NCBI GenBank assembly: GCA_041302525.1
Contig: JBFYQX010000005.1
Span: forward strand, 8,213 to 72,212
Reading direction: 5' to 3'
Origin: Candidatus Bipolaricaulota bacterium
Lineage (GTDB): Bacteria > Bipolaricaulota > Bipolaricaulia > UBA7950 > UBA9294
DNA: 64,000 nucleotides
The position numbers were made by a program, and so were the translations under genes. This document shows, piece by piece, positions 9,660 to 33,296 of this stretch. Position 1 is the first letter of the stretch; each line of letters opens with the position of its first letter. The notes beneath the pieces were generated by a model that was not told the origin of the DNA, did not search any database, and saw only the letters and a program-made list of their open reading frames with translations.

Positions 9660-10538
9660 ATGCAGACTTGGGTGTGGATTCTCATTGTGGCAGCGGTCGT
9701 CATCTTCCTCGGTGGCATCCGCATCGTTCGTCCGACCCATCGGTCCCTTGTCGAGCGGCTGGGCAAGTACCACCGGTTCGGCACGCCGGGCTTCCATTGG
9801 GTCATCCCGTTGATCGATCGGCTGATTCAGATCAACGTCACCGAACAGATGGTCGACGCGCAGCCGCAGGAGATCATCACCAACGACAACCTGAATGCGC
9901 GCGTCGACGCCCAGGTCTACTTCAAGGTGAAGGACGACGAAGACAACGTCAAGAGCTCGCAGTACAACGTGAACAACTACCAGATGCAGATCGTGAACCT
10001 GGCGCGCACGACGCTGCGCAACATCATCGGCACGATGACGCTCAAGTCGGCGAACAGCGAGCGCGACAAGATCAACCAAGAGCTACTCGCCACCCTGGCG
10101 TCCGAGACGAAGAACTGGGGCATGGAGATCGTGCGAACCGAGTTGAAGGAGATCGACCCGCCGAAGGACGTTCAGGAGACGATGAACAAGGTCGTCAAGG
10201 CGGAGAACGAGAAGATCGCCGCGCTTGACTACGCCAACGCCGTGGAGCGTCAAGCGGACGGAGAGAAGCGCTCCGAGATCAAGAAGGCGGAAGGCATCAA
10301 GCAGGCGAAGATCCTCGCCGCCGAAGGCGAGGCGGAGGCGATCCGGCTCGTCAACGAGGCGGCGAACACGTACTTCGTCGGGAACGCGCAACTGCTGCGC
10401 AAGCTCGAGGCACTGGAGAGGTCGTTGAAGGACAACGCGAAGATCGTCATCCCCGAGGGCACGGAACTGATCAACGTGATCGGCGACCTCGCGGGGACTC
10501 CCCTGCCGATCAAGCGCTCGAGCGCAGAGCCGAAATAG
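9660..10538 (+). CDS. SPFH/band-7 (stomatin/prohibitin-like) membrane protein
   Basis: N-terminal TM helix, SPFH core and C-terminal coiled coil. RBS AGGGGGAG. Confidence 0.85.
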   Translation: MQTWVWILIVAAVVIFLGGIRIVRPTHRSLVERLGKYHRFGTPGFHWVIPLIDRLIQINVTEQMVDAQPQEIITNDNLNARVDAQVYFKVKDDEDNVKSSQYNVNNYQMQIVNLARTTLRNIIGTMTLKSANSERDKINQELLATLASETKNWGMEIVRTELKEIDPPKDVQETMNKVVKAENEKIAALDYANAVERQADGEKRSEIKKAEGIKQAKILAAEGEAEAIRLVNEAANTYFVGNAQLLRKLEALERSLKDNAKIVIPEGTELINVIGDLAGTPLPIKRSSAEPK

Positions 10539-10609
10539 ATCTTGAGCGATGGTGACTGAGTGAGCGCGCCCCCGCGAGGGGGCGCCTCGCTTCGACGCTG
10601 GACGGGTCC

Positions 10610-11929
10610 ATGGGCGAGCGACAGGTGATCGAACGAACCCCGAACCTCCCGGCGACGGTCGAGTCTCTCACGCGCGATCTCTGTGCGCTGGGCGTCCGGC
10701 CGGGCGCAGTCGTCCTCGTGCACGCGTCGCTGCGCGCGTTGGGTTGGGTCTGCGGCGGCCCGGTTGCGGTGATAGGCGCGCTTGAGGCGGTCGTAGGCCC
10801 TTCAGGCACCCTCGTCATGCCGGCGCACAGCGGCCAGTTGACCGATCCGCGAGACTGGCGACTCCCGCCGGTGCCGGAAGCGTGGAAGTCGCTCATCCGT
10901 GCGGCGATGCCGGCCTACGACCCGCGCTCGACGCCGACGCGCGGCGTGGGTGCCATCGCGGAGGCGTTTCGCGCGTGGCCAGGGACCGTGCGCAGCGTGC
11001 ACCCGCACGTCTCGTTCGCTGCGCTCGGACCGGAGGCGCGCGCCGTGTGCGGCGGTCATGCCCTCGAGTTCGGCCTCGGCGAGCGCTCGCCCGTGGCGCG
11101 GATCTACGACCTCGATGGGCTCGTGCTCCTTCTTGGGGTGGGCTTCGCGTCGAATACGTCGCTCCACCTTGCCGAGTATCGCGCTGACTACCCTGGCAAG
11201 CGGACCATCGCGCAGGGAGCGCCCGTGCTCCGGGACGGTAGGCGTGAGTGGGTCACGTTCTCCGACCTCGCTATCTCGAGCGACGACTTCGAGGAGCTGG
11301 GCGTGGCCTTCGGGTCTGTTCCGGGCCGGGTGACGACGGGCCGCGTCGGCGCGGGCGCTGCCATGCTCATGCGCCAGCGAGACCTCGTTGACTTCGGCGT
11401 TCGCTGGATGGAGGCGCACCGCGGCACGCCGCGCACGGGTGACGGCATCACCGTCCGCGCGGCGCAAGCCGCAGACCGAGCGGAGTGGGCCGACCTCCGA
11501 CAGGCTCTCTGGCCTGGGACCACGGCAGCCGAACTCGGTGCGGAACTCGACGCGCTTCTCGTCGACCCGCGGGCGGCCACGTTCGTCGCCGCGGCATCTC
11601 CCGGGCGGCTCCGTGGCTTCGCCGAGGTCGCGCTGCGCGACGAGGCGGAAGGCTGCGCGACGCACCCCGTGGGCTATCTTGAAGGCTGGTACGTCAGCCC
11701 CGAGTTTCGGGGTCGCGGGGTCGGTCGCCGTCTCGCCGCGGCGGGAGAGGCTTGGGCGCGTGAGCGCGGCTGCACTGAGATGGCGTCGGACACGACGCCC
11801 GAGTACCCGGACAGCCCGGCCGCGCACGCCGCCGCTGGATACGAGCGGGTCCAAGTCACCGTGCACTTCCGCAAGGACCTCGTACCTCAGCAGAAAAGCC
11901 ATGGGAAGCTTCCGGCCAATGAAGACTGA
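10610..11929 (+). CDS. fused aminoglycoside N-acetyltransferase: N-terminal AAC(3) domain + C-terminal AAC(6')-I-type GNAT domain, 439 aa
   Basis: Residues ~20-280 match the AAC(3) family (VLVHASLRALG..TLVMPAHSG..LLLGVGFASNTSLHLAEY). Residues ~290-439 match AAC(6')-Iy-like sequences (LRQALWPG..YLEGWYVSPEFRGRGVGRRL..GCTEMASDTTPEY..VHFRK). Confidence 0.85.
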   Translation: MGERQVIERTPNLPATVESLTRDLCALGVRPGAVVLVHASLRALGWVCGGPVAVIGALEAVVGPSGTLVMPAHSGQLTDPRDWRLPPVPEAWKSLIRAAMPAYDPRSTPTRGVGAIAEAFRAWPGTVRSVHPHVSFAALGPEARAVCGGHALEFGLGERSPVARIYDLDGLVLLLGVGFASNTSLHLAEYRADYPGKRTIAQGAPVLRDGRREWVTFSDLAISSDDFEELGVAFGSVPGRVTTGRVGAGAAMLMRQRDLVDFGVRWMEAHRGTPRTGDGITVRAAQAADRAEWADLRQALWPGTTAAELGAELDALLVDPRAATFVAAASPGRLRGFAEVALRDEAEGCATHPVGYLEGWYVSPEFRGRGVGRRLAAAGEAWARERGCTEMASDTTPEYPDSPAAHAAAGYERVQVTVHFRKDLVPQQKSHGKLPANED

Positions 11930-12017
11930 AGATTTGACCCCGCGCGAGCGCCGGCTCGCGGGGATGCGTTTGGATCGGGAGCCATGTAGATGTAGACCCG
12001 GCGAGAGGAGCTTGCCG

Positions 12018-13847
12018 ATGTGGATCCGAGCGGGTGGCCTTGTGTGTTTGCTGGTGGCATCGGGTCTAGCGGGCGTTGCCATCGACGCGACGTCCCCGGC
12101 CGCTGCATGGACGCCGCCGGGCCTGCCGGAGGTCCGGGCGGGACTCGATGGGCTTCCGTGGGGTCAGTTCGTCGAGACGTCCTATGTCCTGTACATCCTC
12201 CGGTTTCCCGAAGCGGTCACGCGAATGGGGATGGCGACTGCCTTGGGCGTGCGGAATGACCGACTGAACGACTACTCGGACGCCTACGTGCGCGAGACGA
12301 TGGAGATTGAGTCGGAGATCCTTGGCCGGCTGCGCGCGTTCGATCGAGCGAGTCTCTCGCCGGCCGAGCAGGCGGTCTACGACGCCAGCGCGTGGTACTG
12401 GGACGATCTGGTACGCGCTCACCGGTTTGCCTACTGCGACTACCCGGTGAGCCATCTCTTCGTCACCAGTCTCGATCAGCTGGTGTTCGAGCTCCTCACG
12501 GAGATTCACCCGCTCGCGACCGCGGGCGACGCCGAGGACTACGTTCTGCGGCTCGAGCAGGTCGGGACGCAGTTCGACGGGATCCTCGACGCGCTCGATC
12601 GTCGGGCCGACGCGGGTGTGATTGTCCCGCAGCGGGTGATCGACTGGGCGACATACGGCATGCGTTCCCTGGCCTACGGATCGGCGCCGTCTAGCCCGTA
12701 CTTCGTCCGGCTGCGTGATGCGCTGCCGGCGATGGCCGGCCTCTCCCCAGACCGCGCCGACGCGCTCCGCGGCAGAGCCGAAACCGCGGTGAGCGACGTC
12801 GTCATTCCCGCCTACCGCCGTCTGCTGTCGAAGCTTTCGGGCCTGCGCAGCCAGGCGCCCGAGGTCGGGGTCTGGCGCGTCCCGGATGGTCGGGCGTACT
12901 ACGAGCACTTGCTGAGGCACTTCACGGGCCTCGACCAGAGCGCCGCGGACGTCCACGACCTGGGTCTGCGTGAGGTCGCCAGGATCCACGACGAAGTCCG
13001 CTCCTGCGCCAACGCTCTTGGATACCCCGCGGAATCGTTGACGATCGCCGCGCTCTTTGCGGCCGTCGAGCGGGACGGCGGAGCCTTGGTCGGCGAGGAG
13101 ATCCTCCGCGAGTACGAGCGGCTGATCGATCGAGCCGCGGTGGATGCGCTCGCTTTCCTGCCTGCGTTGCCGTCGACCGCTGTGGTCGTCCGGCCGGATC
13201 CGGTGGGTGGTTTCTACCGATCGGCGCCGCGCGACGGGTCAGCGCCCGCAACGTTTGGCGCGCAGACAACGGGGACGCAACCTCGGTTCACGATGCCAAC
13301 GCTCGCGTACCACGAGACGATTCCCGGTCATCACGTCCAGATCGCGCTGGCTCAGGAAATGGACCTGCCGCTTCTCCTCCGGGAGACCGCCTTCCTCGGA
13401 TTCACCGAAGGGTGGGCGCTCTACGCCGAGCGGCTGGCGGCCGAAGCGGGTTGGTACGCGGACGATCCGTATGGGAACCTCGGTCGGTTGCAGTTCGAGC
13501 TCATGCGCGCGGCGCGGCTTGCCGTTGACACCGGAATCCACGCCGTCGGCTGGGGCTACGACGAGGCTTTGGTCTGGTATCAAGAGGCGACGGGACGGTC
13601 GCCGCAGCTTGCGCAGCAAGACGTGTACCGCTACGCCGCCTGGCCCGGCCAGGCGGTGTCGTACGCCGTTGGCTACCTTGAGTTGCTCGCACTGCGCGAC
13701 GCCACGCGGTCCGCGCTCGGCGACAGGTTCGACCTCACTGCGTTCCATCGGGCCGTCCTCGCGCAGGGGAACGTCCCGCTCGCTGTTCTTGCGGGCGCCA
13801 TGGCGGGATGGATCGCGGCGTCTGCGGCGGAAACGGCGTTGCCGTAG
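12018..13847 (+). CDS. DUF885 family protein (putative secreted metallopeptidase-like), 609 aa
   Basis: Signal peptide (MWIRAGGLVCLLVASGLAGVA) and an HExxH-like YHETIPGHH motif. Overall it matches the DUF885 architecture and is a paralog of 31413-33224. Confidence 0.8.
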   Translation: MWIRAGGLVCLLVASGLAGVAIDATSPAAAWTPPGLPEVRAGLDGLPWGQFVETSYVLYILRFPEAVTRMGMATALGVRNDRLNDYSDAYVRETMEIESEILGRLRAFDRASLSPAEQAVYDASAWYWDDLVRAHRFAYCDYPVSHLFVTSLDQLVFELLTEIHPLATAGDAEDYVLRLEQVGTQFDGILDALDRRADAGVIVPQRVIDWATYGMRSLAYGSAPSSPYFVRLRDALPAMAGLSPDRADALRGRAETAVSDVVIPAYRRLLSKLSGLRSQAPEVGVWRVPDGRAYYEHLLRHFTGLDQSAADVHDLGLREVARIHDEVRSCANALGYPAESLTIAALFAAVERDGGALVGEEILREYERLIDRAAVDALAFLPALPSTAVVVRPDPVGGFYRSAPRDGSAPATFGAQTTGTQPRFTMPTLAYHETIPGHHVQIALAQEMDLPLLLRETAFLGFTEGWALYAERLAAEAGWYADDPYGNLGRLQFELMRAARLAVDTGIHAVGWGYDEALVWYQEATGRSPQLAQQDVYRYAAWPGQAVSYAVGYLELLALRDATRSALGDRFDLTAFHRAVLAQGNVPLAVLAGAMAGWIAASAAETALP

Positions 13848-13856
13848 GGGCCGGAT

Positions 13857-14831
13857 CTACCGCAGCGGGTCGACGTGCTTGCGCCACAGGGCCAGCGCGT
13901 GGTCGCGCGGGTCCACAACGTCGATGCCTTGGTTGGCGAAGAAAACGTTCGTGTTCTCGAGGTCGCGCACGAGGAGTTCCAGCGCGTCGTCGTTGTAGCG
14001 GGGATCGACGGCCTGCGGGAAGTCGATGATCGTCACGCGGCCGTTCCAGTAGAGCATGTTGTACGGCGAGAGATCGGCGTGGACGCGGTGGTGCGTGAGG
14101 AACAGGGCGACGTTCTCGAGGAGTCGCTTGTAGATCCGCTCGGCATCCGCGGCGTCGAGCGACACGCCGACGAGCACCGGAGCGGGATGCTCGGCGTCGC
14201 CGACGTAGTCCATGAGGATCACGGGGCCTGTGCGCTCGATGGGGCATGGCACGTCGCAACCGGCGGCGTGGAGGTTCTCGAGGGTTCTCATCTCGTGGGC
14301 GATCCAGGCGCTGAACTTGTGCGTGCGGCCGTGCTGTGTCTTCTTTCCGAGAGCACGGAGGACGCGCGCATCCGGTCGCGCGCCGCGAGCGCGGCCCTGC
14401 TGGTAGACTTCGTCGCGCCGGAAGCTGCGCGTTTCGAGCGGCCGGTAGACCTTGGCCGCCACAAGATCATGGCCGAGCGATGGGTGCGCCCGGCAGCAGT
14501 AGACGACCGCCTCCTTGCCGCTCTTGATCGGGCGGACGACCTCGAGCAGGAGGTGCTCGTCGATCAGGGGAGCAAGATGCTGGAGGAGCTCCTCTTCCAC
14601 CGTCTTTTCGTCGGGTGCAGGGACCTTCGCCGGCGCGTTCTTGCGCGGCGGCCGACGATGCGACTCGTCGAGCTCTTCGTAGTGGCGGATGACGTTTCCT
14701 CCCCGGGTCTGCGCGCGGGCAGCCTCTGCTACGCAGTATACCCGGCCAGGCGCCGCAACCGGGCGGGAACCTTGGGGCTTCCAGCGCGGTATGATACGGC
14801 GACGTTCCCGCAGGAAGGAGAAACATGACAA
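13857..14831 (-). CDS. RIO-type (RIO1 family) serine protein kinase
   Basis: Gly-loop IKSGKEAVVY, catalytic HADLSPYNML and metal-binding IIDFPQAV. The start is uncertain: TTG at 14831 would clash with the divergent neighbour's ATG, and GTG at 14601 (VEEELLQ) gives a ~248-aa protein. Confidence 0.7.
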   Translation of the reverse strand: MSCFSFLRERRRIIPRWKPQGSRPVAAPGRVYCVAEAARAQTRGGNVIRHYEELDESHRRPPRKNAPAKVPAPDEKTVEEELLQHLAPLIDEHLLLEVVRPIKSGKEAVVYCCRAHPSLGHDLVAAKVYRPLETRSFRRDEVYQQGRARGARPDARVLRALGKKTQHGRTHKFSAWIAHEMRTLENLHAAGCDVPCPIERTGPVILMDYVGDAEHPAPVLVGVSLDAADAERIYKRLLENVALFLTHHRVHADLSPYNMLYWNGRVTIIDFPQAVDPRYNDDALELLVRDLENTNVFFANQGIDVVDPRDHALALWRKHVDPLR

Positions 14832-30040: not shown

Positions 30041-31416
30041 GGCGCCGAGGCCGCCGCGGGCTCCGCCGACCAGGCGACGCGCCCGCCGACGATGGTCATC
30101 GCGACCTCAATCTCCGCAAGGGCCGGGAGGGGCGCCGAGAGAGGGTTTGCGGACAGGACGACGAGATCGGCGAGCTTGCCGGGCTCGAGCGTGCCGAGAT
30201 CGGCTTCCGCGTGCAGGGCCGCCGCGGCGTCAGCGGTCATCATTCGCAGTCCCCGCCATACTGAGACGATCTGCCCTTCCGACAGCGGCGCGCATGGCTC
30301 CCACGACGTGTAGGCCGGGCTCGCGTTCGCGCGCGAGACGAGGTTCGAGAGTCGAAACAGGGGCGATAGGCTGCCCGGGTCGCCCCACGGCCAGTCGCTG
30401 CCGGCGGCGATTCTCGGCACGGCGATGGCCAGGTCGCCCCAGCGGCGCACGATCGGCGCCAGGTCCGGTGGCAGCATGTCGTCGTAGGCGTCGACGAAAC
30501 AGGCGTTCACTGGCTCGACGACGGCCGCCGCGCCGGCAGCCGCGAAGAGCGGGAGAAGGTCATCGCGGACGAAGAGGTCGTGCAGGAGGAGGGGGCGGAG
30601 CGATGGGGCCGGCTCTCCGGCCGCGATCAGCGCACGGAGTGCCGTCTCGATCGCCGCGTCGCCGATCGCGTGCATCGCGACGGGGAATCCGGCGCTTGCC
30701 GCGTCGGCGATGATCGCGGCGAGATCGTCGACCGAGAAGAGCGGTCGGTCTTCGCCGTACCAGAACGTGCCGGCCGGAGAGAGGCGGGCGCGGACCTCAT
30801 CGCTGAACGAGATCGCTGGGCGTCGCGTGCCGCACGACGAGCGCTCGACAAACACCTTCACGCCGCAGGCTGTTAGCCGCGGCGCGACCTCGGCGAATGG
30901 CACGTAGGCGTTGAACCAGTCGCCATGAACGTCGCCGCAGAGGCCGTTGTACGCCAGGAACAGGCGCGCCCGAACACGGATCGCGCCATCTAGGGCGAGC
31001 GCCGCATAGCGCTCAACGTCGCCGGGCTCGACGACCATCTCGGCCGCCGTCGTGACGCCGTATGACAGGGCGAGCTCCTGCGCCTCGACGATGCTCAGGC
31101 CTGCATCTCCGCAGTCACGGAGGAGGTGCGCGTGGGCATCGATGAACCCAGGAAGAGCCGCCTTGCCGGCAAGATCGACGATCTCGGTCTCCGGCGCGGC
31201 GAGCGCCAGGATCTCCTCGTCTGTGCCGAGTGCCAGGATGCGGTCGCTTAGGATGGCGATGGCCGAGACGGCCGCGGTCTCAGACGTCATCGGCAGGATG
31301 TGACCGTGGGCGAGGATGAGCGATGGGACTGGCGGACCCGCCTCGACGCTGACGGCCGCGGCGAGAAGGACAACCAGGACGAGCACGAAGCAGGAGCCGC
31401 ACGGCCGATGGGTCAT
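30037..31416 (-). CDS. secreted amidohydrolase-family metal-dependent hydrolase, 459 aa
   Basis: Signal peptide, HxH (FIDAHAHL) and distal His/Asp motifs. Its start ATG overlaps the stop of the upstream DUF885 gene (ATGA). Confidence 0.8.
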   Translation of the reverse strand: MTHRPCGSCFVLVLVVLLAAAVSVEAGPPVPSLILAHGHILPMTSETAAVSAIAILSDRILALGTDEEILALAAPETEIVDLAGKAALPGFIDAHAHLLRDCGDAGLSIVEAQELALSYGVTTAAEMVVEPGDVERYAALALDGAIRVRARLFLAYNGLCGDVHGDWFNAYVPFAEVAPRLTACGVKVFVERSSCGTRRPAISFSDEVRARLSPAGTFWYGEDRPLFSVDDLAAIIADAASAGFPVAMHAIGDAAIETALRALIAAGEPAPSLRPLLLHDLFVRDDLLPLFAAAGAAAVVEPVNACFVDAYDDMLPPDLAPIVRRWGDLAIAVPRIAAGSDWPWGDPGSLSPLFRLSNLVSRANASPAYTSWEPCAPLSEGQIVSVWRGLRMMTADAAAALHAEADLGTLEPGKLADLVVLSANPLSAPLPALAEIEVAMTIVGGRVAWSAEPAAASAP

Positions 31417-33224
31417 GGGGCCTCAGAATACGCGGCGCCCGGCGGGGGAGGCGAACTCTGGGCGGTACGGGTGGCGACGAACCGATCGACCACACGCTTG
31501 AGCACGGGCAACGGCACGTTGCCGCAGGACAGGACTGCCTCGTGGAACTGGGCGAGGTCAAAGGCGGGCCCCAGGGCCTCGCGCGCGCGCTCGCGGAGCG
31601 CCAGGATCTCGGCCAGGCCGATGCCGTATGAGACGGCCTGTCCGGGGTTGACGATGTACCGATCGACCTCGTCGCGGACGGTGGCCTCGTCGAGCCCGGT
31701 TGCCTCGGTCATGTACGCGATGGCCTGCTCGTACGTCCAGCGCATGACGTGGATCCCAGGATCCACGACCAGCCGAGCGGCACGGAAGAGCTCCTCCTGC
31801 AGTCGGCCGAGGTTGCCGTGCGGATCGTTCTCGTACGCGCCGAGCTCCCAGGCCAGCCGCTCGGCGTAGGTTGCCCAGCCTTCGGCGTAGCCGGAGAAGA
31901 AGACGCTGTCCCGAAAGCGCGGGAGATTCGACTCCTGGGCCATCGCCGACTGGAGGAAGTGGCCGGGCACGGTCTCGTGGCAGACGAGCGAACGCAACGA
32001 GCAGGCCGGGCGCACCTGGTCGACCGGCACGTAGAACGCCCCGGGCCGCGCCCCGTCGCGCGTGCCTTCAGCGAAGTAGGCGATGTTCTGTCCGGACAGG
32101 ACGACCAAGCGCGCCTGGGGCCAACGCGCAAACGCGGGCCGTGCTCGCTCCGTCATCTCGGCCACGAGGGCCTGGCAGGCTTCGACGGCCGCTGATCCCG
32201 AGACGGTCCCGCAGTCTGCGCGCAGCTGCGCGAAGAGATCCGGGATCGGCAGGGCCACGTCGTACCCCAAGACGGCGGCTGCGGCGCGGACCTCGGCCTG
32301 CACGCGCGCCACCTCGCGTTGGCCGAACGCGTAGATCTCGTCCGGCGTCTTGTCGGTCGTCGTGTAGGCGCGGGCGAGGTAGGCGTAGTACTCGGCGCCC
32401 CCCTCGAGGCGCCACACCCCGATCTCGTCGGAGACGCGGGCGGCGAGGTCTCGAACCTGGCCCGCGAGCTTGATGTAGGCCGGAGCGACCGTGTCGGTCA
32501 CGACCGCCACGGCGCGATCGGCCAGGGACTGTCGATCGTCGGGCTCCATGTCCGCGAGGCCGGCGAGCCCCTCGAGGAAGTGGGCCAGGAGATTCGGCTG
32601 CCCCGGCCGACCGCGGCCGATCGCCTCGATCTCGTCGGCGGTGCGGTGAAGTAGGAACGCGGGAGCCAGGGCTCCCCTGCGTTCGCTTGCCTCCAGGCGC
32701 GTGGCGAGTTCGTCGAAGCGGAGCGGGAAGAGCGCGAGGCGGGTCAGGTAGTCCTCGGCATCCGCAGCGCACGCCAAGGGGTGAACGTGAACCATGAACC
32801 AGGCGAGCGACTGCGGGACACTCGTTAGGTAGGGACTGACCAGACACGTGTAATCCAGGTATGGTCTCGCGTCGAGTGCGCTCTGAAGCCACGCGGCGAA
32901 TGCCGTGGCGGCCACATCGACGCTCCAGGTTTCTCGCGACAAGTCCGCCGTCCGGATGCGCTCCACGGCTTCCGCGAGCGGCGCGTACGACGCGCCGGTT
33001 GCATCGAGAGCCAACCCGTCCAGTCCATCGTTGCGCAAGCCCAGCTCGGCCGCGGCGCCGCGGGTCGTGATCGTCTGCGGCGATTGACGTAGGAGATCAA
33101 GAGCGAGCCGCTCAAGGTAGACAGAGAGAGGCTCCTCAGGCGGCGCGCTGGGCGGGCCTACGTCTGCGGAGAGCCCAAACAAGACCGCGAGGACGAGCAG
33201 GAGGGTCTCGATCAGCCTCCACAT
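31413..33224 (-). CDS. DUF885 family protein (putative metallopeptidase-like), paralog of 12018-13847
   Basis: ATG at 33224 with an AAGGAG RBS. Signal-peptide-like N-terminus, and HETVPGHF aligns to HETIPGHH in the other copy. Confidence 0.8.
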   Translation of the reverse strand: MWRLIETLLLVLAVLFGLSADVGPPSAPPEEPLSVYLERLALDLLRQSPQTITTRGAAAELGLRNDGLDGLALDATGASYAPLAEAVERIRTADLSRETWSVDVAATAFAAWLQSALDARPYLDYTCLVSPYLTSVPQSLAWFMVHVHPLACAADAEDYLTRLALFPLRFDELATRLEASERRGALAPAFLLHRTADEIEAIGRGRPGQPNLLAHFLEGLAGLADMEPDDRQSLADRAVAVVTDTVAPAYIKLAGQVRDLAARVSDEIGVWRLEGGAEYYAYLARAYTTTDKTPDEIYAFGQREVARVQAEVRAAAAVLGYDVALPIPDLFAQLRADCGTVSGSAAVEACQALVAEMTERARPAFARWPQARLVVLSGQNIAYFAEGTRDGARPGAFYVPVDQVRPACSLRSLVCHETVPGHFLQSAMAQESNLPRFRDSVFFSGYAEGWATYAERLAWELGAYENDPHGNLGRLQEELFRAARLVVDPGIHVMRWTYEQAIAYMTEATGLDEATVRDEVDRYIVNPGQAVSYGIGLAEILALRERAREALGPAFDLAQFHEAVLSCGNVPLPVLKRVVDRFVATRTAQSSPPPPGAAYSEAP

Positions 33225-33296
33225 GCCTTCGCTCCTTTCCGCCACCTTGAGGCCATGGGCCCAGAGTGTCGCGCGGGCGCGAGCTTCACGCCGGCC

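What the first reader, a model, noticed from the sequence alone, without database searches (positions are those of the whole stretch)
10610..11929. Single ORF fusing an AAC(3)-family domain to an AAC(6')-I-type GNAT domain
The N-terminal ~280 aa carry the hallmark AAC(3) blocks (LVHASLRALG, TLVMPAHSG, LLLGVGFASNTSLHLAEY). The C-terminal ~150 aa align very closely to AAC(6')-Iy-type enzymes (LRQALWPG; YLEGWYVSPEFRGRGVGRRL; GCTEMASDTTPEY; VHFRK). Fusions in this AAC(3)-to-AAC(6') order are, as far as I recall, known mainly from integron cassettes in Pseudomonas. A chromosomal environmental version in a high-GC organism would suggest a native two-site aminoglycoside or aminosugar acetyltransferase, and possibly a resistance-gene reservoir. 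No mobile element is nearby, so it looks intrinsic.
Basis: partly seen in the sequence, partly recalled or inferred. Interest (0 to 1): 0.6.

Follow-up and report, generated by a model that had tools for sequence, protein, structure and literature searches.

The report
Two-domain acetyltransferase fusion, YokD-type plus AAC(6')-like
The gene really does join two different acetyl-transferring enzymes in one protein, and it is inherited on the chromosome of an uncultured bacterial lineage, but the front half belongs to a branch whose tested members do not modify aminoglycosides, so a two-site aminoglycoside resistance enzyme is not shown.

Summary
The ORF (10610-11929, +, 439 aa) is real and uninterrupted. 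The identical protein is called in other independent assemblies.

**What the two halves are**
- Residues 36-268 are a full-length Antibiotic_NAT domain. Residues 283-424 are a GNAT domain most like AAC(6')-I "group E".
- All 34 family members tested fall below NCBIfam's curated AAC(3) and AAC(6') cut-offs.
- The N-half is closest to FrbF, BA2930 and YokD (240-272 bits, 44-53% identity). The literature reports all three as inactive on aminoglycosides. Validated AAC(3) enzymes score 155 bits or less.
- The C-half is 40% identical to AAC(6')-Iy.
- Catalytic and cofactor-binding residues are conserved in both halves.

**Distribution**
- About 64 clusters share the fusion, in MAGs labelled Bipolaricaulota or Thermotogae. 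The locus is syntenic, with no mobile element and no plasmid copy.

**Comparison with the known fusion**
- The Pseudomonas AAC(3)-Ib/AAC(6')-Ib' fusion is not homologous in its N-half, because AAC(3)-I is a GNAT.
- YokD/FrbF-type domains are fused repeatedly to different GNATs, in both orders.

**Verdict**
- This is a dual-site small-molecule N-acetyltransferase. Only the C-domain is a plausible aminoglycoside modifier.
- It is a new variant of a known kind, of modest interest.

The parts
10610..11929 (+). Whole ORF, 439 aa plus stop: two-domain acetyltransferase
   Evidence: Searches give the ORF. One search shows that the start codon aligns with the starts of 33 fused homologues. One search finds the identical protein in independent assemblies.
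10715..11413 (+). N-terminal Antibiotic_NAT-fold domain (aa 36-268) of the FrbF/BA2930/YokD subgroup
   Evidence: Pfam PF02522 scores 300.7 bits over the full profile. In the PDB sequence search FrbF scores 272, BA2930 264 and YokD 240 bits, against 155 or less for true AAC(3)s. Foldseek gives target TM-scores of 0.93-0.96 to BA2930, YokD and FrbF. Identity is 52.7% to FrbF and 47% to BA2930.
11153..11179 (+). Catalytic helix motif N-T-S-L-H-L-A-E-Y (aa 182-190). T183, H186 and E189 correspond to T186, H189 and E192 of AAC(3)-VIa and to H183 of BA2930.
   Evidence: H186 and E189 are invariant in 34 of 34 fused homologues. T183 is T in 28, S in 5 and A in 1. The role of the triad is taken from PMC5884680. 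The BA2930 H183A and H183G mutant structures align at this position.
11420..11455 (+). Inter-domain linker (aa 271-282), poorly conserved and variable in length
   Evidence: Columns for aa 273-281 are variable, and P0027 carries an 18-residue insertion here. Model pLDDT is about 64 for aa 271-280, and overall pTM is 0.65.
11456..11881 (+). C-terminal GNAT domain (aa 283-424), AAC(6')-I 'group E'-like
   Evidence: NCBIfam AAC_6p_group_E scores 125-129 bits against a cut-off of 140, covering profile positions 3-140 of 140. The PDB search gives AAC(6')-Iy 94.7 bits, Ig 74 and Ih 64. Identity is 40% to Iy and 35% to Ig. W301, E358 and D394 are invariant or nearly so.
11708..11725 (+). GNAT motif A, the acetyl-CoA pyrophosphate-binding loop R-G-R-G-V-G (aa 367-372)
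   Evidence: The sequence is read directly. R367 is conserved in 33 of 34, G370 in 33 of 34 and G372 in 34 of 34 homologues. That R/Q-x-x-G-x-G/A is the GNAT CoA-binding signature is established knowledge.
11882..11926 (+). Lineage-specific C-terminal tail (aa 425-439), probably disordered
   Evidence: The tail is absent from most homologues, which are 422-428 aa long. pLDDT is below 50 for aa 427-439.
10566..10585 (+). Conserved G+C-rich hairpin (GCGCCCCC / GCGA loop / GGGGGCGC) between the Band_7 stop codon and the start of the fusion gene. It may be a terminator or another processing or regulatory stem.
   Evidence: The intergenic RNA folds at -36.8 kcal/mol with z = -2.5. The stem and a GNRA loop are conserved in L085, L086 and L002 while the flanking sequence diverges, and L086 carries a C-to-T change that keeps a G-U pair. 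There is no U-tract, so the consensus scan does not call it a terminator.

Best explanation
The gene encodes a vertically inherited, chromosomal enzyme with two active sites. Both use acetyl-CoA to N-acetylate small-molecule amines.

**N-terminal domain.** It is an Antibiotic_NAT-fold enzyme of the FrbF/BA2930/YokD subgroup and uses a Thr/His/Glu catalytic set. Its physiological amine substrate is unknown and is probably not an aminoglycoside.

**C-terminal domain.** It is an AAC(6')-I-like GNAT with an intact CoA loop. It also keeps the Trp/Glu/Asp positions that line the aminoglycoside pocket of AAC(6')-Iy. This domain could plausibly acetylate a primary amine on an aminoglycoside-like polycation.

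**How the domains relate.** A short, variable linker joins them, and they most likely act as independent catalysts. The likely role is broadened detoxification or modification of amine-bearing xenobiotics, as in other bifunctional modifying enzymes.

**Shown:** the domain identities, conservation of the catalytic residues, conservation of the fusion, and its chromosomal, syntenic setting.

**Inferred:** that both domains are active, that they act independently, and the class of substrate.
For: - **Domain calls and scores:**
- **N-half subgroup:** it belongs with FrbF, BA2930 and YokD by sequence (272, 264 and 240 bits against 155 or less). By fold, target TM-scores are 0.93-0.96. It aligns with them almost without gaps.
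- **Catalytic residues:** H186, E189, W301, D394 and G372 are invariant in 34 homologues. T183, E358, R367 and G370 are nearly so.
- **Co-inheritance of the halves:** pairwise distances of the two halves correlate among 67 fused proteins (Pearson r = 0.88).
- **Structure model:** two well-folded domains (pLDDT 84.8), a weak linker and pTM 0.65.
- **Synteny:** the block rotamase, lipocalin, adh_short, DEAD helicase, Band_7, fusion gene, DUF885 or PCMT-like gene, RIO1 is conserved.
- **Some neighbourhoods are rich in detoxification-type genes:** other GNATs, SAM methyltransferases, glyoxalase and nitroreductase.
- **Recurrent fusions:** YokD/FrbF-type domains are fused independently to several other GNAT types, in both orders. 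The partners resemble AAC(6'), ArsN1/phosphinothricin acetyltransferase, RimI and PRK03624.
- **Literature:** three members of the N-half's subgroup lack aminoglycoside activity.
Against: - No biochemical data exist for any member of the fused family.
- The N-half scores slightly higher on the AAC_3 model (213-215 bits) than FrbF or BA2930 (186-196 bits), and it is 39% identical to AAC(3)-Xa. Aminoglycoside activity therefore cannot be excluded.
- Both halves have been kept together across about 64 clusters, and Antibiotic_NAT plus GNAT pairings recur. That could mean the two sites cooperate on one substrate instead of acting independently.
- The gene neighbourhood does not point to any pathway or substrate.
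- The neighbour-joining tree has no support values, and 14 unfused sequences nest among the fused ones.
Confidence: 0.55

Rival explanations
1. The protein is a genuine bifunctional AAC(3)/AAC(6') enzyme that acetylates aminoglycosides at both N3 and N6'. It would give intrinsic resistance and act as a reservoir of resistance genes.
For: - Both halves hit only aminoglycoside-acetyltransferase models at the top of the NCBIfam list.
- The catalytic triad of AAC(3)-VIa is conserved.
- The AAC(6')-Iy pocket positions are conserved.
- The N-half is 39% identical to AAC(3)-Xa and 35% to AAC(3)-IIIa.
- Bifunctional aminoglycoside-modifying enzymes are a known theme.
Against: - Both halves are below the curated cut-offs in all 34 members.
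- Aminoglycoside-inactive FrbF and BA2930 score about the same on AAC_3.
- The nearest relatives of the N-half are exactly the three Antibiotic_NAT proteins reported as inactive on aminoglycosides.
- No copy lies on a plasmid or near a mobile element.
- The hosts are MAGs labelled Bipolaricaulota. From my own knowledge, that lineage is described as mostly anaerobic, and anaerobes take up aminoglycosides poorly, so selection for resistance would be weak. This last point is inference, not a test.
Confidence: 0.12
2. The enzyme has an endogenous metabolic role. The two sites acetylate two amines of one native metabolite, or two consecutive intermediates. Candidates are a polyamine, a diamino sugar or nucleotide sugar of the envelope, or an aminophosphonate. 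The fusion would then channel a pathway.
For: - The fusion is retained for a long time and the halves co-evolve (r = 0.88).
- Inheritance is vertical, in a housekeeping-type syntenic block.
- The closest characterised relative, FrbF, is a biosynthetic enzyme.
- Antibiotic_NAT plus GNAT fusions recur, which is Rosetta-stone logic.
- One such fusion (P0263) carries a phosphinothricin/arsinothricin-acetyltransferase-like GNAT. That recalls FrbF's aminophosphonate chemistry.
Against: - No biosynthetic genes are conserved next to the fusion. The neighbours are Band_7, a DEAD helicase, DUF885 and RIO1.
- No frb-like phosphonate genes are present.
- A sister lineage in the same locus has only the N-domain, so the second site is dispensable.
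- The partner GNATs in other fusions are of many different kinds. That fits a toolkit of independent enzymes better than one shared pathway.
- The model gives no confident inter-domain interface (pTM 0.65).
Confidence: 0.2
3. It is a protein or peptide acetyltransferase. One or both domains would acetylate lysines or N-termini of cellular proteins instead of small molecules.
For: From my own knowledge, AAC(6')-Iy acetylates histones and peptides in vitro (Vetting et al. 2004). In other Antibiotic_NAT plus GNAT fusions the GNAT is RimI-like.
Against: - The C-half's best matches are AAC(6')-I models and not RimI or Pat.
- No target gene is conserved nearby.
Confidence: 0.06
4. It is an artefact. 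Two adjacent genes would have been merged by a sequencing or assembly error, or the gene would be a decaying pseudogene.
For: None was found., which tested this directly, all point the other way. The possibility was considered only because high-G+C DNA produces long spurious ORFs, for example the antisense ORF at 10802-12082.
Against: - The identical protein is found in four contigs from different assemblies.
- About 64 diverged clusters have the same architecture and a continuous frame.
- Catalytic residues are invariant in both halves.
Confidence: 0.01

Closest known systems
FrbF (Streptomyces rubellomurinus, PDB 3SMA), the N-acetyltransferase of FR-900098 phosphonate biosynthesis
   Same: It is the best sequence match of the N-half in the PDB (272 bits). 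Identity is 52.7% over 256 aligned residues, and the alignment is almost gap-free. It has the same fold, with a target TM-score of 0.93-0.95, and the same NTSxHLAEY catalytic helix.
   Different: FrbF is a single-domain protein encoded in a phosphonate biosynthetic cluster. The window gene has no phosphonate genes nearby and carries an extra GNAT domain. That FrbF's substrate is a CMP-linked aminopropylphosphonate is from my own knowledge. Nothing here shows that the window protein uses that substrate.
BA2930 (Bacillus anthracis, PDB 3E4F/3IJW) and YokD (Bacillus subtilis SPbeta, PDB 2NYG), orphan Antibiotic_NAT-fold acetyltransferases
   Same: They score 264 and 240 bits, are 44-47% identical and reach target TM-scores up to 0.96. 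The catalytic His is conserved (BA2930 H183 corresponds to H186 here). They also fall below the cut-off on NCBIfam AAC_3.
   Different: Both are single-domain proteins of Firmicutes. They bind acetyl-CoA but gave no kanamycin inactivation or resistance. Their true substrates are unknown, so they do not reveal the substrate here.
AAC(6')-Iy/Iaa of Salmonella and the AAC(6')-I 'group E' enzymes (Iz and Iak of Stenotrophomonas, among others)
   Same: The C-half covers the whole group-E profile, positions 3-140 of 140. It is 40% identical to AAC(6')-Iy. It keeps the positions aligned with W22, E79 and D115 of Iy (the roles of these residues are from my own knowledge). These enzymes are also chromosomal and 'cryptic'.
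   Different: It scores 125-129 bits, below the curated 140, and far below every allele-specific cut-off. Here the domain is the C-terminal module of a 439-aa protein and not a stand-alone enzyme of about 145 aa. Closer stand-alone relatives (50-61% identity) are uncharacterised environmental GNATs.
AAC(3)-Ib/AAC(6')-Ib' fusion of Pseudomonas aeruginosa class 1 integrons (Dubois et al. 2002) and the other bifunctional aminoglycoside-modifying enzymes
   Same: It has two acetyltransferase modules in one polypeptide, with the module named '3' ahead of the module named '6''. Fusion as a way to broaden substrate range is a known theme.
   Different: AAC(3)-I is a GNAT of about 145 residues (NCBIfam NF033083, seen). 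The N-half here is the unrelated Antibiotic_NAT fold and does not hit that model. AAC(6')-Ib models do not appear among the C-half's hits. There is no integron, cassette or plasmid context. The two fusions are analogous, not homologous.
Validated Antibiotic_NAT resistance enzymes: AAC(3)-IIIa, -Xa, -VIa, -IIIb, -IVa and meta-AAC0038
   Same: They share the fold and the His/Glu catalytic dyad plus Thr.
   Different: They are much more distant, at 101-155 bits and 32-39% identity. The variable 'minor subdomain' that forms the aminoglycoside cleft aligns here with FrbF and BA2930 and not with these enzymes.

Membership tests
Antibiotic_NAT fold family (Pfam PF02522) | Full-length match above Pfam's gathering score | tested here: met
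   300.7 bits against a cut-off of 25, covering profile positions 1-232 of 232 at aa 36-268.
AAC(3) aminoglycoside 3-N-acetyltransferases (NCBIfam NF033082; Stogios groups 1-4) | Score at or above the curated equivalog cut-off of 270 bits | tested here: not met
   213-215 bits. None of the 34 fused homologues does better than E 1.2e-65. Aminoglycoside-inactive FrbF scores 196 bits and BA2930 186 bits on the same model.
AAC(3) aminoglycoside 3-N-acetyltransferases (NCBIfam NF033082; Stogios groups 1-4) | Catalytic His/Glu dyad with a Thr oxyanion residue (T186, H189 and E192 of AAC(3)-VIa) | tested here: met
   T183, H186 and E189 lie in NTSLHLAEY. His and Glu are invariant in 34 of 34. FrbF, BA2930 and YokD share this feature, so it does not discriminate.
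AAC(3) aminoglycoside 3-N-acetyltransferases (NCBIfam NF033082; Stogios groups 1-4) | Groups with aminoglycoside-active members and not with the inactive outgroup | tested here: not met
   FrbF scores 272, BA2930 264 and YokD 240 bits, against AAC(3)-IIIa 155, Xa 154, VIa 135, IIIb 117 and IVa 106. Foldseek gives the same order. Outgroup status is taken from PMC8956665. No bootstrapped tree was built with that paper's data set.
AAC(3) aminoglycoside 3-N-acetyltransferases (NCBIfam NF033082; Stogios groups 1-4) | Acetylates the 3-amino group of 2-deoxystreptamine aminoglycosides or confers resistance | not testable with these tools
   This needs MIC and enzyme assays.
FrbF/BA2930/YokD subgroup of the Antibiotic_NAT fold | Closest characterised relatives by both sequence and fold, with a near gap-free alignment | tested here: met
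   Identity is 52.7% to FrbF and 47% to BA2930. Target TM-scores are 0.93-0.96.
FrbF/BA2930/YokD subgroup of the Antibiotic_NAT fold | FrbF-like function specifically: located in a phosphonate (frb-type) biosynthetic cluster | tested here: not met
   Within +/-10 kb the neighbours are MFS, GNAT, NTPase_I-T, rotamase, lipocalin, adh_short, DEAD helicase, Band_7, DUF885, RIO1 and similar genes. No phosphonate genes are present.
AAC(6')-I aminoglycoside 6'-N-acetyltransferases (NCBIfam NF043067 'group E') | Score at or above the curated equivalog cut-off of 140 bits | tested here: not met
   125.2 bits for the whole protein and 128.6 bits for the C-half alone, which is close to the cut-off but below it. 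The best E-value among the 34 members is 6.6e-38, also below it.
AAC(6')-I aminoglycoside 6'-N-acetyltransferases (NCBIfam NF043067 'group E') | GNAT fold with the acetyl-CoA motif A (R/Q-x-x-G-x-G/A) | tested here: met
   Acetyltransf_1 scores 61.2 bits. The motif R367-G-R-G370-V-G372 is conserved in 33-34 of 34.
AAC(6')-I aminoglycoside 6'-N-acetyltransferases (NCBIfam NF043067 'group E') | Aminoglycoside-pocket residues of AAC(6')-Iy (W22, E79, D115) | tested here: met
   They align with W301, E358 and D394. Conservation is 34 of 34, 33 of 34 and 34 of 34. The roles of these residues are recalled from Vetting et al. 2004 and were not re-read here.
AAC(6')-I aminoglycoside 6'-N-acetyltransferases (NCBIfam NF043067 'group E') | Acetylates the 6'-amine of aminoglycosides | not testable with these tools
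   This needs enzyme assays with product regiochemistry.
AAC(3)-Ib/AAC(6')-Ib'-type integron fusion | N-terminal module is a GNAT-type AAC(3)-I | tested here: not met
   The N-half has no hit to NF033083 AAC_3_I at E <= 0.01. That model is a 145-position GNAT-size profile. The N-half has the Antibiotic_NAT fold.
AAC(3)-Ib/AAC(6')-Ib'-type integron fusion | Carried as an integron cassette, or on a plasmid or other mobile element | tested here: not met
   No PLSDB record covers 80% or more of the protein. No integrase or transposase is found among the genes of the window that were examined. The chromosomal locus is syntenic.
AAC(3)-Ib/AAC(6')-Ib'-type integron fusion | Two acetyltransferase domains in one polypeptide | tested here: met

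The most novel reading that the evidence does not exclude
The orphan YokD/BA2930/FrbF branch of the Antibiotic_NAT fold may have a real, previously unrecognised functional partnership with GNAT acetyltransferases. It has fused with GNATs many times, independently, in both orders and with different GNAT subtypes. This Bipolaricaulota family would be the largest and oldest example. Its two sites would cooperate on one substrate carrying two amines, such as a polyamine, an aminoglycoside-like polycation or an aminophosphonate toxin. If so, the family would offer a way to find the native substrate of a structurally solved enzyme clade whose function is unknown.
Probability: 0.15. Interest if true: 0.6.

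Novelty: new variant of a known kind. Interest (0 to 1): 0.35.

Why it matters
- **Annotation caution.** This case shows how a resistance-gene call can go wrong. Pfam's 'Aminoglycoside 3-N-acetyltransferase' label, and JGI's automatic name for several family members, would count this gene as an AAC(3). Its nearest characterised relatives do not touch aminoglycosides. Resistome surveys of environmental metagenomes would over-count it.
- **A route to an orphan clade's function.** The fusion is conserved, and Antibiotic_NAT domains are fused to GNATs repeatedly. That gives an experimental route to a clade (YokD, BA2930) whose structures were solved more than a decade ago without a known function.
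- **If the C-domain is active.** If it does turn out to be an active AAC(6'), the protein would be a new, non-mobile combination of two unrelated acetyltransferase folds. That is of moderate interest for enzyme evolution and has no immediate clinical relevance.

Tried and rejected
1. **Pre-existing gene pair.** I looked for an AAC(6')-like GNAT near unfused homologues with tblastn of the C-half against about 75 loci with +/-8 kb flanks. Nothing was found outside the fused loci. The fusion therefore does not derive from a widespread operon.
2. **Apparent longer matches in L010 and L031.** These are plain single-domain genes, and the tblastn extensions were spurious.
3. **NTPase_I-T (YjjX-type) gene overlapping the unfused gene.** The overlap is real, but it occurs in only 5 of about 80 unfused loci, all in one Anaerolineae-type sublineage. 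I rejected it as a general functional clue.
4. **SAM methyltransferase next to the fusion in L087 and L088.** The two are orthologous to each other (56% identity). They are only weakly similar to the methyltransferase module of the P0088 fusion, and the window has no copy. The lead is weak.
5. **Rfam scan of the window.** No RNA family reached its threshold.
6. **Consensus promoter and terminator scan around the gene.** It gave nothing useful.
7. **Plasmid search.** No fused copy was found.
8. **Primary papers.** The FrbF paper, the BA2930 paper and the Dubois fusion paper are not in the held library. The roles of the AAC(6')-Iy residues could not be re-read either. Those points rest on secondary citations or on my own knowledge, and they are marked as such.
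9. **Monophyly of the fused proteins.** A neighbour-joining tree of the N-domains puts all 67 fused sequences in one clade of 81, with 14 unfused sequences nested inside. There are no support values, so a single origin is likely but not proven.
10. **Inter-domain geometry.** The tool returns only pLDDT and pTM, so the distance between the two active sites could not be measured.
Full report
**Observation**

- The window holds an uninterrupted ORF at 10610-11929 on the + strand, encoding 439 aa.
- Pfam places a complete Antibiotic_NAT domain at aa 36-268 (300.7 bits, profile 1-232 of 232). It places a GNAT domain at aa 293-406 (61.2 bits).
- The reading frame is not an artefact. The identical protein is called on contigs of GCA_041302495.1 and of two independent read-set assemblies. 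A 99%-identical copy occurs in GCA_041302545.1.
- About 64 clusters at 52-70% identity have the same length and cover 97% of the query. In an alignment of 34 of them, both halves are conserved throughout (mean column identity 65%).

**What the N-terminal half is**

- Against NCBIfam it hits only AAC(3) models. It reaches 213-215 bits on the general AAC_3 equivalog, whose curated cut-off is 270. None of the 34 family members passes that cut-off.
- In the PDB sequence search the order of hits is clear:

| Protein | Bits |
|---|---|
| FrbF | 272 |
| BA2930 | 264 |
| YokD | 240 |
| AAC(3)-IIIa | 155 |
| AAC(3)-Xa | 154 |
| AAC(3)-VIa | 135 |
| AAC(3)-IIIb | 117 |
| AAC(3)-IVa | 106 |

- Identity is 52.7% to FrbF and 47% to BA2930. 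The alignments to both are almost gap-free.
- An AlphaFold2 model built on the family alignment gives the same ranking by fold. Target TM-scores are 0.93-0.96 for BA2930, YokD and FrbF, ahead of AAC(3)-Xa (39% identity) and AAC(3)-IIIa (about 35%).
- Stogios et al. 2022 state that FrbF, YokD and BA2930 have the Antibiotic_NAT fold but that none of them possesses activity against aminoglycosides. They use the three as the outgroup of the resistance family (PMC8956665).
- A separate study expressed YokD in E. coli and found no kanamycin resistance or degradation. It cites the same negative result for BA2930 (bioRxiv 10.1101/053025).
- As a calibration I scored FrbF and BA2930 on the same AAC_3 model. 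They reach 196 and 186 bits, the same sub-threshold zone as the window protein. A score of about 200 bits on this model therefore says 'Antibiotic_NAT fold' and not 'AAC(3)'.
- The Thr/His/Glu set that forms the catalytic triad with the substrate in AAC(3)-VIa (T186, H189, E192; PMC5884680) is present as T183, H186 and E189 in NTSLHLAEY. His and Glu are invariant in the family. The domain is therefore very probably an active acetyltransferase. The inactive-on-aminoglycoside relatives share this set, so it does not indicate the substrate.
- The same paper locates the aminoglycoside cleft mainly in the variable 'minor subdomain'. In that part the window protein follows FrbF and BA2930.

**What the C-terminal half is**

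- Alone, it covers the whole AAC(6') 'group E' profile (positions 3-140 of 140) at 128.6 bits. That is close to the curated cut-off of 140 but below it. Next come the Stenotrophomonas models Iz and Iak, and then Iy/Iaa at 93 bits.
- In the PDB it matches only AAC(6')-Iy (94.7 bits), AAC(6')-Ig (74) and AAC(6')-Ih (64). Identity is 40% to Iy and 35% to Ig.
- The GNAT CoA loop R-G-R-G-V-G is conserved. So are the positions aligned with W22, E79 and D115 of AAC(6')-Iy, which are W301, E358 and D394 here. That these residues line the aminoglycoside pocket is from my memory of Vetting et al. 2004. I could not re-read that paper here.
- Closer relatives exist as stand-alone environmental GNATs of 145-160 aa at 50-61% identity, none of them characterised.
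- The C-half is therefore a credible but unproven AAC(6')-I-like enzyme.

**The fusion and its history**

- *Linker and model.* The linker (about aa 271-282) is short, poorly conserved and variable in length. The model has two confident domains, a weak linker and pTM 0.65. No fixed inter-domain arrangement is predicted.
- *Co-inheritance.* Among 67 fused proteins the pairwise distances of the two halves correlate (Pearson r = 0.88). This indicates they have been inherited together.
- *Taxonomic range.* In one genome per species (GTDB set), full-length matches occur only in MAGs labelled Candidatus Bipolaricaulota, 'uncultured Thermotogae' or unclassified. All other hits cover only the N-half. 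Those come from Chloroflexota, Poribacteria, Latescibacterota, Spirochaetes, some archaea and others.
- *Rarity.* In an exhaustive search of 1.84 billion 50%-identity representatives, the family collapses to one representative (P0024). Among the other hits checked, only one more distant protein (P0247, 43% identity) shows the same pairing of domain types.
- *Synteny.* The locus is syntenic. The order is rotamase, lipocalin, adh_short, DEAD helicase, Band_7, the fusion gene, a PCMT-like methyltransferase and/or DUF885, then RIO1.
- *Host lineage.* Neighbouring proteins are 83-90% identical to those of a Bipolaricaulota-labelled MAG. That ties the window to this lineage.
- *Rate of change.* The fusion protein itself is only 65-70% identical in the same comparisons, so it evolves faster than its neighbours.
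- *Gain or loss in place.* A sister lineage has a single-domain gene in the same syntenic locus. It ends exactly at the domain boundary (…WMNAHRS, stop) and leaves no GNAT remnant. The GNAT module was therefore gained, or cleanly lost, in place.
- *No ancestral gene pair.* None of about 75 unfused loci has an AAC(6')-like gene within 8 kb.

**Context**

- G+C at the gene is 0.685, within the window's range of 0.65-0.71.
- The genes within +/-10 kb, and 20 further ORFs across the window, are metabolic or housekeeping. They include a ClpB-type ATPase, SecD, GcpE, MgtE, gamma-glutamyltranspeptidase and aminotransferases. No integrase or transposase was seen.
- No plasmid in PLSDB carries a fused copy.

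**A wider pattern**

- The representative search listed many longer proteins that contain this YokD/FrbF-type domain. I picked 20 of them by length, so the sample is not random. Ten or eleven have a GNAT as the partner domain.
- Eight have the GNAT after the Antibiotic_NAT domain and three have it before.
- The partner GNATs are of different kinds. They include AAC(6')-like (P0247), arsinothricin/phosphinothricin-acetyltransferase-like (P0263), RimI-like (P0254, P0304) and PRK03624-type (P0270). Others have no close named relative.
- Other partner domains are SAM methyltransferase, FmdE, flavin reductase and a zinc ribbon.
- This recurrent pairing of two unrelated acetyltransferase folds suggests either a general 'toolkit' logic or a real functional coupling. 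I could not decide between these two possibilities.

**Mechanism proposed**

- Each domain binds acetyl-CoA and transfers the acetyl group to a primary amine of a small molecule. The N-domain would use the His/Glu/Thr mechanism of its fold. The C-domain would use the usual GNAT mechanism.
- The flexible linker, the dispensability of the C-domain in a sister lineage and the variety of GNAT partners favour two independent activities in one polypeptide. The likely role is modification or detoxification of amine-bearing compounds.
- My estimates:

| Claim | Probability |
|---|---|
| Both domains are active acetyltransferases | about 0.85 |
| The C-domain acetylates some aminoglycoside in vitro | about 0.5 |
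| The N-domain is a 3-N-acetyltransferase of aminoglycosides | about 0.15 |
| The protein is a true two-site aminoglycoside resistance enzyme | about 0.12 |

**Comparison with what is known**

- Bifunctional aminoglycoside-modifying enzymes are established. Examples are AAC(6')-Ie-APH(2'')-Ia, ANT(3'')-Ii/AAC(6')-IId, AAC(3)-Ib/AAC(6')-Ib' and AAC(6')-30/AAC(6')-Ib'.
AAC(3)-I is a small GNAT (NF033083, a 145-position model), and the N-half here does not match it. It also lies in an integron.
- I found no paper in the held library that describes an Antibiotic_NAT plus AAC(6') fusion. The library does not cover most subscription journals.
- Databases already hold these proteins under automatic names: 'GNAT family N-acetyltransferase' at NCBI and 'aminoglycoside 3-N-acetyltransferase' at JGI.

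**Verdict**

- This is a new domain combination of known enzyme families, conserved in an uncultured lineage. It is probably not a two-site aminoglycoside acetyltransferase.
- Interest is modest (0.35). Its main value is as a caution for resistome annotation and as a possible route to the function of the orphan YokD/BA2930 clade.

Noticed in passing
window 10566-10585 (intergenic, between the Band_7 stop at 10538 and the start of the fusion gene at 10610): An 8-bp all-G/C stem with a GNRA tetraloop (GCGCCCCC-GCGA-GGGGGCGC). It is conserved in three other lineages (L085, L086, L002) while the flanking sequence diverges, and L086 has a C-to-T change that keeps a G-U pair. There is no U-tract, so it is not a classical intrinsic terminator. 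It may be a terminator in this lineage or some other RNA stem.
   Followed up: partly
P0088 (526 aa) and P0252 (532 aa), from the protein searches: A YokD/FrbF-type Antibiotic_NAT domain is fused to a class I SAM methyltransferase domain. In L087 and L091 a small methyltransferase gene also lies close upstream of the acetyltransferase gene, and in L088 one lies about 2 kb upstream. Those neighbouring genes are only weakly similar to the fused methyltransferase module.
   Followed up: partly
P0263 (444 aa), from the representative search: An Antibiotic_NAT domain is fused to a GNAT that resembles arsinothricin/phosphinothricin N-acetyltransferases (ArsN1b 83 bits, PPT acetyltransferase 69 bits, both below their cut-offs). 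This is suggestive, because FrbF, the closest characterised relative of the Antibiotic_NAT half, acts on an aminophosphonate.
   Followed up: no
L010 7450-8004, L013, L016, L090 2959-3504, L092 2950-3504: In one Anaerolineae-type sublineage the unfused acetyltransferase gene starts 4 bp before the end of an upstream NTPase_I-T (YjjX-type ITPase/XTPase) gene, which suggests translational coupling. An NTPase_I-T gene also lies about 5.3 kb upstream of the fusion gene, on the opposite strand, in the window's own syntenic block (L001 4159-4719). The association was seen in only 5 of about 80 unfused loci.
   Followed up: yes
L089 5331-9220: Next to an unfused homologue (P0065) lie genes with QueC-like (faint), QatB and KAP_NTPase hits. 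This looks like a Qat-type anti-phage defence cluster and appears unrelated to the acetyltransferase.
   Followed up: no
window 12018-13847 (+) and 31413-33293 (-): The window has two DUF885 paralogues. The first lies directly downstream of the fusion gene. The second is flanked by amidohydrolase and aminotransferase genes and a GntR-aminotransferase regulator. DUF885 and a PCMT-like methyltransferase alternate or co-occur downstream of the fusion gene in related genomes.
   Followed up: partly
window 13857-14600 (-): A RIO1-type atypical protein kinase gene is conserved in the syntenic block of all related MAGs (70-84% identity). RIO kinases are uncommon in bacteria.
   Followed up: no
window 10802-12082 (-) and other long antisense ORFs: A 426-aa ORF runs antisense to the fusion gene. 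Several other long overlapping ORFs in this 68% G+C DNA also look like compositional artefacts and not genes. The sense frame has the high GC3 (0.82) expected of a real gene.
   Followed up: partly
window 10610-11929 compared with its neighbours (L002, L003, L085, L086): Between the same pairs of genomes the fusion protein is 65-70% identical, while the flanking Band_7, DEAD helicase and RIO1 proteins are 83-90% identical. The acetyltransferase therefore evolves markedly faster than its neighbours.
   Followed up: partly
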